Part shown: positions 3,001-6,000 of the stretch, one piece after another
How positions within the stretch are numbered: the first letter of the stretch is position 1
Layout of the letters: each line of letters begins with the position of its first letter
Source: a virus
Taxonomy: Duplodnaviria > Heunggongvirae > Uroviricota > Caudoviricetes
Length of the DNA stretch: 11,183 bases
IMG/VR virus record: IMGVR_UViG_2703718798_000001
Location: 1 to 11,183 of that record
Reading direction: 5' to 3' (one strand)
Position numbers: made by a program

Positions 3001-6000
3001 TCAACAACCGGGGAGACATAGGCTGCCACCGGCGTTTTTCCGGTAATTTTGTCCAGCATCACCTCTTCGGTGTGGAAATTCACCGTACGGCGGAAAAACA
3101 GTTCCAGAAACAGCGCACGAAATTTCACTTTTTGTTCGGTATAACCGAGTAACTGGCGGGTCGTAAACAATCCCATAAATCAGTTCCTTTCATTCAGAAA
3201 TCAGTCAGGCCAACGCGGTGGCCTGATAACGTGTTACGGCAGCGCCGCGTGACTCAGGGCTGTGCCGACAAAGGCGTTGGCCTTTTTGTGTTCATCCACA
3301 CTTTCAGGCCAGCGGATTGCCTCCGTCGCAAAGGTCCCCGACTTGTAATACGTCAGCACCGTCTCTGTGCCTTCAAGCGGCAGTACCAGTATGCCAGCCG
3401 CACTACCGGCTTTCTGTCCGTCCCAGACCACCAGTTTCCCGCTGGCTTCATCCAGCATCAGGGGCGTCAGTGCCGGTGTTGCCTGAGAAATCCCGCTGCT
3501 GCCTGTGGCGGTATGAGCCGGATCATTACCGGCAAAAATACGTACTTCTGCACGTTGTTCAGTGATGGTTTTCGTTACCATATTGTAAAAACCTCATATT
3601 GATGGTCAGCACTGACTTCATGGCATGGCCATGAGCATTTTCACGTCCGCATCACCGTCTGCTGACGTCTGTGACACGCCACCCTGCACGGCTGCCGGTG
3701 AATGGTTCGCCATGATGCGTTCAAACATGGCGGTTGTGGATGCAGAAACCGGTTCTGCTTTATCCGGCGATGAGGACAGAATGTCGCGGGCAGCCTCCAC
3801 CGTCATTCCGGGAAACGCCGCCAGTTTTTCAGCCTGCGCCTCAGCCCTTTTTGCCTCATCCAGAGCCATAATCTGATCACGGAGTGAGGGTCCGGCATCC
3901 GCCTGCGGTGAAGCCGCCAGGATCGGGCGGGCTTTTTCCACCGTCATATCCGGCATCGCCGCCAGCGTTGCCGCCAGTTGTTCACGACCTTTAGCTTCTT
4001 CACACGCCATAATGCGATCGGCTTCACTCTGCGCGGATGCCACCGGCTGCTGCGGTGCTGCCGCGGCCAGAATCGCCCGGGCCTGTTCAACGCTCATGCC
4101 CTGTTGTCCTGCCAGCATCGTGGCAAGCTGTTCACGTCCTTTCGCTTCCTGACACGTCAGGATCCCCATCACTCGCTGGTTCTCCTGCGCGGCGGCTTCC
4201 GTTGCAGTTAATTGCGGCATAGTGCCTCCTGTATCATGTGTATTCAGCGCCGCAGCCATCACGCTGATGGCATCCGACGCATTGATTAATTCATCCGCCA
4301 GCCCGGCCTCAATACCGGACTGACCTTCAAAAACGGCAGCCTCTGTCCCCGTGACAGCTTCCACAGACAGCCCCGTATACATCGCCACTTTTTCGGCAAA
4401 CATCCGGTGCGCTGCATCAATCCGCTGCTGCATGTCCTGGCGAACCTCTGACGGCAACGCTTCAAACTGATTGCCATCCACCTTATGCGCCCCGGCATAA
4501 ATCAGCGTGATATCCACTCCGGCCTGCGCCAGATGACCGGCATAGCTGACATGGCTCATCATCACGCCAATGGAGCCGATACGGGATGTCTGGGTAACCA
4601 GCCGTCGGGAGCAGGCCGACGCCAGCAGCATGGCCGCAGAACAGGCCGTGTCATTACACAGTGCCCAGACCGGCTTCTGCTGCCGGAGGCGGTAAATCAT
4701 GTCAGCGCAGTCAAACGCACCGGCGGCCTGCCCGCCCGGACTGTCAATGTCCAGCAGTACGCCCCGGACAGAGGTGTCTGCCATTGCCTGCTGAAGACAG
4801 GCAACAATGCCGTCATAGCCTGTCATTCCGGAAAATGGCCGCATACCACCCAGCCGGTGCACCAGCGTGCCGGTCACCGGCAGTACCGCAATACCGTTCA
4901 CCACCCGGTAAACACGGGCCGGTCGTTTACCTCCGGCCATGTACTCGTCCGTTTCAGCCAGCATCCCGGGAGCATCAAGCTGTACCTGCTGTTGTGGTAA
5001 CGAAAGACTTGCTGCCCCCATCTCGCGCCCGAGCGCGCAAAAGAAAACCCGCGCATAGGCAGGCTCCAGAAGCAGCGGTTCATTGAATGCTGCGGCAATA
5101 ATGTGTGAAAGATTACGTCTCACGTGGTGTTGTCTCCTCTTCCGGCCTGCGGCTCTCCGCTATCTGCTGCTGATACGCCTGCGCTATCCACACCGGACGT
5201 GAGAGTCCGGCTTTTTCCCGCTCTGCGGATTCCCTGACCTGCTGGCGGAAAATGTCCTGATAATCCTCGCCCATCAGCGCCAGCTCTTTCTCATACGTGC
5301 TCAGTCCGGAATCAATACGCATCACCGATTCCTGGACCTCCTTGAGCCCGTCAATGGCCATTCTTCCTGCGCCAATCCACTCTGCCCGTGACCAGGCTGA
5401 ACGCGCCTGATAAAAATCAAAACGCGCCCGTGGAGGACGAATAATCCCCCGCAGAAGTGCCTCTTCCAGCCAGCAGGAAAACATCTGCGTGGCCAGCCGG
5501 GCCGCAATAAATTTTCGTCGTCCCATAAAATAGCGCCACGACTCATTGGCGGAGGCGCGGGCACTTGAATAACTGACCTTCGAGTAATCACGGGACAACT
5601 GTTCGTAGGAAACGCCAAGACCGGCGGCGATATACCGCAGCAGCGCCTGTTCAAGCGCCGAAAATCCATTGTCTGAATCCTGCGCGGTCTGAAGTTTCAG
5701 ACCATCACCGGGGAAAAGGTGCGGAATTTTGACACCGCCCAGCGTCACATGATTCGTGTCATACCAGCTGGAGAACTTCTCCAGAATATTAATAAGCGGA
5801 TTATCCTGCTGACCCTGCGGTGCCCCCGCGATATATTCAAAGGCCTTTTCGGTATCAAGTTCACTTTCAATCGTCGCTGCATACATGGCTTTAACAATGG
5901 CCGACTGAAGCTGTGTTGCCTGCAGGGAATCAAGCATCTTCAGCCGTTCCATGACACTGTAAAACTGATTGGCCCCACGGGTCTGCCCGTCCTCCACCGG

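What the first reader, a model, noticed from the sequence alone, without database searches (positions are those of the whole stretch)
3720..4175. Tandem in-frame multiplication of a roughly 47-aa scaffold motif in the C/Nu3 region
The C-terminal part of C (the nested Nu3 scaffold) contains three consecutive units centred on I/VM..L/C.EAKGREQLA..LA...GMTVE.AR.IL...P plus a partial fourth, with about 141-bp periodicity. From memory, lambda C/Nu3 carries this motif once (RIMGILNCEEAHGREEQARVLAETPGMTVKTARRILAAAPQ), which would explain why this C is about 60 aa longer. Repeat expansion in a scaffold could change capsid assembly stoichiometry, or simply mark replication slippage or recombination.
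Basis: partly seen in the sequence, partly recalled or inferred. Interest (0 to 1): 0.5.

Follow-up and report, generated by a model that had tools for sequence, protein, structure and literature searches.

The report
Phage 21 scaffold "Tri box" triplication
The head protease/scaffold gene of this phage-21-like E. coli prophage really does carry three old tandem copies of a roughly 40-residue helical module that lambda has once. GenBank has annotated this as the "Tri boxes" of phage 21 since the early 1990s, and it is present in about a third of complete E. coli genomes, so it is ordinary.

Summary
The 501-aa C homologue (window 3618-5123, minus strand) contains three significant tandem units: aa 315-367, 368-414 and 415-466. 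Pairwise z-scores are 9-16 and no shuffle out of 2000 reached the observed scores. Lambda C has one unit.

The feature is already known. The gene is 94% identical to phage 21 gene 5/6, and GenBank M81255 annotates exactly these segments as "Tri1 box / Tri box / Tri3 box; function unknown".

The triplication is old, not recent slippage:
- Nucleotide identity between units is 53-69%, and third-position identity is 28-47%.
- Orthologous units are more alike than paralogous ones.
- It is fixed in the phage 21 / Gifsy-1 head lineage.
- This gene type occurs in 1866 of 5426 complete E. coli genomes, against 3141 with the lambda-type single-copy gene.

Across 1.84 billion representative proteins, one copy is the rule: 51 of 53 full-length hits have one copy, and three is the maximum seen.

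The "partial fourth unit" is only ERIMA. It matches a conserved tail element that lambda also has.

AlphaFold with a 49-sequence alignment predicts each unit as a confident small helical module joined by disordered linkers. The units lie in the part shared by the protease and the nested 200-aa scaffold, so I infer they are the procapsid-targeting or self-association module, here trivalent. That function is untested.

The parts
3618..5123 (-). Gene for the prohead protease/scaffold fusion (lambda C, phage 21 gene 5 homologue), 501 aa, GTG start
   Evidence: ORF list. It is 94% aa and 94.2% nt identical to phage 21 gp5 and 58% aa identical to lambda C. It lies between the portal and decoration genes.
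4245..4688 (-). Peptidase S49 (SppA/ClpP-fold) domain, aa 146-293
   Evidence: Pfam PF01343, E 1.7e-35. Foldseek finds SppA 3rst/4kwb at E 1e-17. pLDDT is above 90.
3618..4220 (-). Nested in-frame scaffold gene (phage 21 gene 6, lambda Nu3 homologue), 200 aa, begins MPQLTATEAAAQ
   Evidence: Collinear with the gene 6 CDS annotated in M81255 and OL657228. The ATG at 4220 follows an AGGAGG. Expression was not tested here.
4225..4230 (-). Shine-Dalgarno AGGAGG, 4 nt upstream of the nested ATG
   Evidence: Sequence CAGGAGGCACTATG. Lambda has the same arrangement, CAGGAGGGCGAATG, at the homologous Met309.
4023..4181 (-). Unit 1 (aa 315-367). Its core is the Tri1 box, window 4050-4153, aa 324-358. 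This is the ancestral-position copy, closest to the single unit of lambda.
   Evidence: pLDDT 88-93.
3882..4022 (-). Unit 2 (aa 368-414). Its core is the Tri (2) box, window 3903-4013, aa 371-407.
   Evidence: pLDDT 92-95.
3726..3881 (-). Unit 3 (aa 415-466). Its core is the Tri3 box, window 3759-3872, aa 418-455. This unit is a divergent allele relative to phage 21 (20% nt difference).
   Evidence: pLDDT 80-83.
3621..3725 (-). C-terminal tail (aa 467-501), FERIMANHSPAAV...KMLMAMP. It is the homologue of lambda's LDRLMQGAPAP...LLNTPV tail and is not a fourth repeat.
   Evidence: One short predicted helix, with the last 28 residues at pLDDT below 50.

Best explanation
The window is the late (head) operon of a phage-21-like prophage of E. 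coli. The feature is the known 'Tri box' triplication in the phage 21 gene 5/6 homologue, which corresponds to lambda C/Nu3.

The repeated element is a module of about 40 aa: I-M-x-x-x-E-A-K-G-R-E-x-L-A-x-x-L-A-x-x-P-G-M-T-V-E-x-A-R-x-I-L-x-x-x-P. It is predicted to form short helices. It occurs once, downstream of the S49 protease domain, in lambda C and in nearly all related prohead proteases. In the common ancestor of the phage 21 / Gifsy-1 head lineage it was duplicated twice, in frame and in tandem. It has been kept as three diverged copies joined by Pro/Ala/Ser-rich flexible linkers, together with a shortened upstream spacer.

All three copies lie downstream of an internal Shine-Dalgarno plus ATG. 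They are therefore present both in the full-length protease and in the nested 200-aa scaffold protein.

Inferred mechanism: the module is the element through which both products are recruited into the assembling procapsid, by binding the inner face of the major capsid protein and/or by scaffold self-association. Three copies would make each polypeptide trivalent, in effect a covalent multimer of the lambda arrangement. The flexible linkers would remain accessible to the protease for scaffold removal.

What is shown: the repeat, its age, its distribution, the nested start signal and the predicted helical modules. What is inferred: the binding role (I put it at about 0.4-0.5) and any effect on stoichiometry.
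For: Identity:
- The gene is 94.2% nt identical over all 1506 nt to phage 21 gene 5/6.
- The Tri1, Tri and Tri3 repeat_region features of M81255 map exactly onto U1, U2 and U3.
- The operon context is Nu1-A-W-B-C-D-E-FI-FII-Z-U plus endolysin and Rz.

The repeat is real: z-scores 9-16 and a 3 x 97 nt DNA family.

The repeat is old and selected as protein:
- nt identity 0.53-0.69 and third-position identity 0.28-0.47 between units.
- Orthologous units are 0.77, 0.63 and 0.57 identical, against 0.48-0.53 for paralogous units.
- Unit-for-unit alignment holds in relatives 53-62% identical.
- Gifsy-1 has three units.

Distribution:
- Lambda, phi80, Vibrio HY01 and BcepNazgul have one unit each.
- The unit-profile search of 1.84e9 representatives gave 480 hits. 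Of the best 150, 138 have one copy. Of 53 full-length hits, 51 have one copy and 1 has three. None has more than three.
- The module always follows an S49 domain.
- The 21-type gene is in 1866 of 5426 complete E. coli genomes and the lambda type in 3141 of 5426.
- Every full-coverage hit listed in the spread sample spans exactly 1506 nt.

Nested start: AGGAGG-N4-ATG at window 4220, conserved at lambda Met309. PHROG 8399 'head scaffolding protein' matches the region three times.

Structure: AF2 with 49 sequences gives pLDDT 80-95 for each unit as short helices. Linkers fall below 50-70 and the tail below 50.

Background on lambda: Nu3 interacts with itself, with C and with E (PMC3224144).
Against: - No experiment or solved structure assigns a function to the module. 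The GenBank note itself says 'function unknown; putative'.
- No Pfam or NCBIfam family and no PDB entry covers it. Foldseek on the scaffold-only model found nothing.
- The capsid-binding determinant could instead be the extreme C-terminal tail, which is also conserved.
- AF2 gave low confidence for the scaffold alone with a shallow alignment (pLDDT 55). I recall lambda Nu3 being reported as intrinsically disordered; if so, the units may fold only on binding.
- Rare natural alleles with two units exist, so three may not be strictly required. These are singletons or tiny clusters and may be defective prophages.
Confidence: 0.8

Rival explanations
1. The module is an oligomerisation element rather than a capsid-binding one. 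In lambda, single-unit Nu3 chains associate through it. In the phage 21 lineage the three units pack intramolecularly, so one chain replaces a small oligomer, and capsid contact is made by the extreme C-terminal tail.
For: Lambda Nu3 self-interacts (PMC3224144). The tail LxxxMxxxxxP...L-x-x-x-P is conserved in both single- and triple-copy proteins. Triple-copy proteins have the shortest upstream spacer, 27 aa against a median of 68, as if overall length were compensated.
Against: No confident inter-unit packing is available: pTM is 0.24 for the scaffold alone and 0.54 for the full protein. No data on the oligomeric state of phage 21 gp6 were found.
Confidence: 0.25
2. The extra units have no specific function. 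They are tolerated filler in a disordered, transient scaffold that is degraded anyway, fixed by drift in one lineage.
For: Scaffold length after the protease domain varies widely in the family, 121-267 aa. U3 is the least conserved unit (0.57), and here it has lost the G-R of EAKGRE, reading EAKRAE. Two-unit alleles exist.
Against: After divergence to saturation at synonymous sites, all three units still keep the core motif in lineages 53-62% identical. Gene length is constant at 1506 nt in every full-coverage hit listed from the spread sample of E. coli genomes. No full-length representative with two copies was found.
Confidence: 0.12
3. The repeat is a recent replication-slippage or unequal-recombination expansion, or an assembly artefact, specific to this sequence.
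For: Tandem in-frame arrangement. Occasional recombinant or deleted alleles show that unit-to-unit recombination can occur: P0021 is a U1/U2 hybrid and P0020 lacks U2.
Against: The copies are only 53-69% identical in DNA and TRF does not detect them. The same three units are in phage 21 (sequenced about 1993), in Gifsy-1 and in 1866 complete E. coli genomes.
Confidence: 0.01
4. The repeat is maintained for a DNA-level function, for example the CII-binding-site-like TTGYN6TTGY matches annotated on the opposite strand in phage 21 record OL657228.
For: Two such pattern matches are annotated inside the scaffold region.
Against: The annotation is a pattern match only. Conservation between units is at the amino-acid level, with low third-position identity of 0.28-0.47. 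The module is conserved as protein in phages of Vibrio and Burkholderia.
Confidence: 0.02

Closest known systems
Phage 21 genes 5 and 6 (head-tail preconnector gp5 and nested scaffold gp6) with Tri1/Tri/Tri3 boxes. GenBank M81255 and OL657228. From memory, the paper is Smith and Feiss 1993, Gene 126:1; it is not held in the library.
   Same: Same gene, same length (501 aa, with a 200-aa nested product), 94% identity, the same three boxes at the same positions, the same internal RBS and ATG, and the same operon order.
   Different: About 6% sequence divergence, concentrated in unit 3: 20% nt and 21% aa there, against 2.5-5.7% elsewhere. This copy is a prophage allele; the closest matches are E. 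coli strains at 98-99%.
Lambda C / Nu3 (S49 prohead protease with nested scaffold)
   Same: Same architecture and operon position, 58% aa identity, the same module sequence, the same tail, and a conserved internal SD-ATG just upstream of the module.
   Different: Lambda has one module instead of three and a 36-aa longer spacer. It is 439 aa against 501, and its nested product from the homologous start is 131 aa against 200.
Gifsy-1 gpC homologue (STM2605.Gifsy1) and Salmonella relatives
   Same: Three units, collinear unit for unit, with a similar length of 498 aa.
   Different: About 60% identity in the scaffold part, with a slightly longer tail.
C-terminal helix-loop-helix coat-binding domain of P22-type scaffolding proteins (functional analogy only; recalled from general knowledge)
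   Same: A short helical element at the C-terminal side of a flexible, transient scaffold. In P22 this element binds the coat protein.
   Different: No sequence or fold relationship was detected. P22 has a single element, no protease fusion, and recycles its scaffold rather than degrading it.

Membership tests
Lambda-like S49 prohead protease with nested scaffold (C/Nu3; phage 21 gp5/gp6) | N-terminal Peptidase S49 (SppA/ClpP-fold) domain | tested here: met
   PF01343, E 1.7e-35, aa 146-293. Foldseek finds SppA at E 1e-17.
Lambda-like S49 prohead protease with nested scaffold (C/Nu3; phage 21 gp5/gp6) | Gene lies between the portal gene and the decoration and major capsid genes, overlapping the portal gene end | tested here: met
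   Portal is 5113-6705, C is 3618-5123, the D/shp homologue is 3234-3581 and E is 2148-3176, all on the minus strand.
Lambda-like S49 prohead protease with nested scaffold (C/Nu3; phage 21 gp5/gp6) | In-frame internal translation start giving a separate scaffold protein | tested here: inconclusive
   The sequence signal is present: AGGAGG-N4-ATG at 4220. It is collinear with annotated gene 6 and conserved at lambda Met309. Actual translation cannot be tested with these tools.
Lambda-like S49 prohead protease with nested scaffold (C/Nu3; phage 21 gp5/gp6) | Conserved EAKGRE...GMTVE.AR.IL module downstream of the protease domain | tested here: met
   Three copies here. One copy in lambda, phi80, HY01 and BcepNazgul, and in 51 of 53 full-length representatives.
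Phage 21-type 'Tri box' variant | Three tandem boxes at the positions annotated in M81255 | tested here: met
   Mapped box coordinates translate to aa 324-358, 371-407 and 418-455, which are the cores of U1-U3.
Phage 21-type 'Tri box' variant | Proteolytic activity and scaffold function in prohead assembly | not testable with these tools
   This needs genetics or biochemistry. The conserved S162 and K214 positions are present in the alignment.
Recent slippage-type tandem repeat (VNTR-like) | High nucleotide identity between copies and copy-number polymorphism among close relatives | tested here: not met
   Copies are 53-69% nt identical and TRF is silent. Gene length is 1506 nt in every full-coverage hit listed from the spread sample of E. 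coli genomes. Only rare two-unit alleles were found.
P22-type scaffolding helix-turn-helix coat-binding domain | Detectable sequence or fold similarity and coat-protein binding | tested here: not met
   No PDB sequence match better than E 0.028, and that is a chance haemoglobin hit. No Foldseek match. Binding is not testable here.

The most novel reading that the evidence does not exclude
The Tri-box unit is a discrete, autonomously folding module of about 40 aa with three short helices. It has no Pfam or PDB entry. It would be the universal procapsid-targeting or scaffold-association domain of lambda-like S49 protease/scaffold proteins. On this reading the phage 21 / Gifsy-1 lineage has turned a scaffold that works as a non-covalent oligomer into a covalent trimer of binding modules, which would lower the number of scaffold chains needed per T=7 prohead.
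Probability: 0.3. Interest if true: 0.35.

Novelty: already known. Interest (0 to 1): 0.15.

Why it matters
It matters little as a discovery. The triplication is annotated in the phage 21 head-operon record and is the norm for a very common prophage head type.

Its residual value is as a natural experiment. The same T=7 lambda-like capsid, with a major capsid protein 61% identical to lambda E, is built with a scaffold carrying either one or three copies of the conserved module. No function has ever been assigned to that module. A domain definition (there is no Pfam entry) and a comparison of scaffold stoichiometry between lambda and phage 21 proheads would show how lambda-type scaffolds engage the shell.

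Tried and rejected
1. Tandem Repeats Finder on the window found nothing at the locus, because the copies are too diverged. The repeat was shown by protein alignment with shuffles and by the repeat finder instead.
2. The first homologue search, using the scaffold part, returned mostly fragments and was of little use for counting copies in full-length proteins. It was replaced by a unit-profile search of cluster representatives.
3. AF2 of the nested scaffold alone with 11 sequences gave pLDDT 55. Its Foldseek search was accordingly empty.
4. Foldseek of the full model only recovers SppA/ClpP for the protease domain.
5. A PDB profile search with a 20-unit alignment gave only chance hits. Pfam and NCBIfam have nothing for the unit.
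6. Literature searches gave no paper on Tri-box function. Smith and Feiss 1993 is not in the held library, so the prior description rests on the GenBank annotation itself.
7. Readings considered and rejected: a fourth partial repeat (it is the conserved tail), recent slippage, an artefact, and a DNA-level CII-site function.
8. The long hits P0136, P0120 and P0118 looked like new architectures. They are S49 proteins fused to tail-protein domains, most likely deletion or assembly chimeras.

Full report
**What is in the window**

All sizeable real genes are on the minus strand and form a lambda-type late operon:

| Gene | Window coordinates |
|---|---|
| Endolysin | 10515-11048 |
| Rz-like | 9749-10216 |
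| Small terminase | 8792-9301 |
| Large terminase | 6892-8877 |
| W-like adaptor | 6702-6908 |
| Portal | 5113-6705 |
| C homologue | 3618-5123 |
| Decoration protein | 3234-3581 |
| Major capsid protein | 2148-3176 |
| FI | 1727-2095 |
| FII | 1381-1749 |
| Z | 787-1365 |
| U | 395-790 |

The whole window matches E. coli chromosomes at up to 98.2%. At least 80% of it is present in 1421 of 5426 complete genomes. It is a common phage-21-like prophage.

**Checking the observation**

The C homologue is 501 aa. Pfam finds only a Peptidase S49 domain, aa 146-293. Downstream lie three similar segments:

- U1, aa 315-367: NQRVMGILTCQEAKGREQLATMLAGQQGMSVEQARAILAAAAPQQ...
- U2, aa 368-414: ADRIMACEEAKGREQLAATLAAMPDMTVEKARPILAASPQ...
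- U3, aa 415-466: RDQIMALDEAKRAEAQAEKLAAFPGMTVEAARDILSSSPDK...

Local alignment scores are 107, 101 and 66, against shuffle means of about 25 (sd 5). That gives z-scores of 16, 15 and 9, and none of 2000 shuffles reached them.

At the DNA level, the repeat finder reports three 97-nt copies, 63-70% identical and 141 and 150 nt apart. Tandem Repeats Finder sees nothing. Unit starts are 159, 141 and 156 nt apart, so the periodicity is not a uniform 141.

The 'partial fourth' unit is only ERIMA and is not significant. It belongs to a tail that lambda (LDRLMQGAPAP...) and the whole family share. Apart from these two corrections, the observation and its coordinates hold.

**What it is**

The gene is 94.2% identical over its full 1506 nt to phage 21 genes 5/6. 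GenBank M81255 ('Bacteriophage 21 head gene operon') carries three repeat_region features inside gene 6.

Transferred to the window, these features are 4050-4153, 3903-4013 and 3759-3872. They translate to aa 324-358, 371-407 and 418-455, which are exactly the cores of U1, U2 and U3. The triplication is therefore an already described feature of phage 21. From memory, the source is Smith and Feiss 1993, Gene 126:1; the paper is not in the held library.

**Nested scaffold gene**

Both phage 21 records annotate a nested gene 6, which corresponds to window 3618-4220. In the window the ATG at 4220 is preceded by AGGAGG at a spacing of 4 nt. The product is 200 aa, beginning MPQLTATEAAAQ.

Lambda has the same signal, CAGGAGGGCGA-ATG, at the homologous Met309. 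That start would give a 131-aa Nu3. RefSeq instead annotates nu3 from Met239 (201 aa), which has no Shine-Dalgarno sequence. PHROGs holds profiles of both lengths.

With homologous starts, the scaffold here is 69 aa longer than lambda's. The whole of it is three units plus a 16-aa head and a 35-aa tail.

**Comparison with lambda and others**

Lambda C (439 aa) has one unit, which aligns with U1, and a 36-aa longer spacer before it.

| Phage | Units (20-unit profile) |
|---|---|
| Phage 21 | 3 |
| Gifsy-1 | 3 |
| Lambda | 1 |
| phi80 | 1 |
| Vibrio HY01 | 1 |
| Burkholderia BcepNazgul | 1 |

A profile of the three window units was searched against 1.84 billion cluster representatives and found 480 proteins at E <= 0.001. 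Among the best 150:

- 138 have one unit.
- 7 have two units, and these are short ORFs or fragments.
- 3 have three units.

Of the 53 full-length proteins (380 aa or longer), 51 have one unit and one (P0087, 505 aa) has three. None has more than three.

The unit always follows an S49 domain. Three apparent exceptions are chimeras with tail-protein domains.

In 47 single-copy homologues the spacer from the S49 domain to the unit has a median of 68 aa (range 39-159). In both three-copy proteins it is 27 aa, the shortest seen.

In complete E. coli genomes, the 21-type gene is present in 1866 of 5426 and the lambda-type gene in 3141 of 5426. Every full-coverage hit listed in the spread sample spans exactly 1506 nt.

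**Age of the triplication**

- Between units, nucleotide identity is 0.53-0.69 and third-position identity is 0.28-0.47. Only about half of the identical residues use the same codon.
- In three-copy proteins only 53-62% identical to this one (Salmonella and others), the units align one to one.
- Orthologous units are more alike (0.77, 0.63 and 0.57) than paralogous ones (0.48-0.53).
- U1 is closest to the single unit of other phages (0.57 against 0.50) and keeps the N-terminal R-V/I-M-G-I-L extension.

So U1 is the ancestral copy. U2 and U3 are ancient insertions that predate the phage 21 / Gifsy-1 split. Recent slippage is excluded.

Rare alleles with two units exist: P0020 lacks U2, P0021 is a U1/U2 recombinant, and P0018 and P0091 are partial deletions. 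All come from singleton or very small clusters.

**Structure**

- With only 11 scaffold sequences, AF2 gave pLDDT 55.
- With 49 full-length homologues, the model has mean pLDDT 83. The units score 88-93 (U1), 92-95 (U2) and 80-83 (U3).
- Each unit is predicted as a run of short helices. In U1 these are 307-323, 331-339 and 345-354.
- The units are separated by low-confidence linkers and followed by a tail whose last 28 residues are below 50.
- Foldseek recovers SppA and ClpP for the protease domain only.
- No solved structure, Pfam family or NCBIfam family covers the unit.

**Mechanism**

Shown here: a conserved helical module sits in the segment shared by the protease and the nested scaffold. 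It is single in most phages and triple here.

Known for lambda: Nu3 interacts with itself, with C and with E, and is needed for correct prohead assembly (PMC3224144).

Inferred: the module mediates recruitment of both products into the procapsid, through the capsid protein and/or scaffold self-association. Three copies would make each chain trivalent, and the linkers would be accessible to the protease.

Rival readings, each with the tests that would separate them, are listed in the rival-explanations section:
- The module is an oligomerisation element, with the tail acting as the capsid anchor.
- The extra units are functionally neutral filler.
- The repeat serves a DNA-level role.

**Verdict**

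However, the feature is already annotated, ancient, lineage-typical and extremely common. Interest is low. The only open point is the still-unknown function of the module.

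Noticed in passing
window 3726-3881 (unit 3) versus L001 (phage 21): Unit 3 differs from phage 21 by 19.9% nt and 21% aa, while the rest of the gene differs by 2.5-5.7%. This is a mosaic patch or alternative allele: EAARDILSSSPDK here against ESARAVLAAGSGK in phage 21. Both alleles occur in database proteins (P0001 and P0003).
   Followed up: partly
window 4218-4230; L003 (lambda) locus 2543, which is lambda 5342: The internal AGGAGG-ATG for the nested scaffold is conserved at lambda Met309, which predicts a 131-aa Nu3. 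RefSeq NC_001416 annotates nu3 from Met239 (5132; 201 aa), where no Shine-Dalgarno sequence is visible. PHROGs has profiles of both lengths (131 and 201).
   Followed up: partly
L002 (OL657228) locus 1851-1864 and 2085-2098, roughly window 3968-3981 and 4202-4215, plus strand: The phage 21 genome record annotates two 'CII binding site' pattern matches (TTGYN6TTGY) inside the scaffold coding region on the opposite strand. They are pattern-only and probably chance.
   Followed up: no
proteins P0020, P0021, P0018, P0091: Rare E. coli alleles have lost a unit or are hybrids of two units. P0021 joins U1 to U2 inside the ARxIL helix. This shows that unit-to-unit recombination happens but is not fixed.
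   Followed up: partly
proteins P0092 and P0073 (E. coli): Another lineage shows two near-identical consecutive units (…GMTVEQAKMLLAAAPVAGSASVGDQIMALPEAKGRE… twice), in a fragment and in a frameshifted 323-aa ORF. This is either a recent duplication or an assembly artefact.
   Followed up: no
proteins P0136, P0120, P0118: These ORFs fuse a complete S49 domain and unit to tail tape-measure, tail L or tail U domains. They are probably deletion chimeras in decayed prophages or misassemblies.
   Followed up: partly
window 10515-11048, minus strand: The endolysin has a hydrophobic N-terminal segment (MNTKIKYGLSAAVLALIAAGASAPEILDQF…), as in the signal-anchor-release lysozyme of phage 21. This fits the phage 21-type late region.
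   Followed up: no
window 6892-8877 and 8792-9301, minus strand: The mechanical ORF for the large terminase starts at a TTG, 18 codons upstream of a more plausible ATG (MNISEQQL…), and overlaps the end of the small-terminase ORF. Start sites here were not checked.
   Followed up: no
alignment A5: Both three-unit proteins have a 27-aa spacer between the protease domain and the first unit. This is shorter than in all 47 single-unit homologues (range 39-159, median 68), which hints at compensation of total scaffold length.
   Followed up: partly
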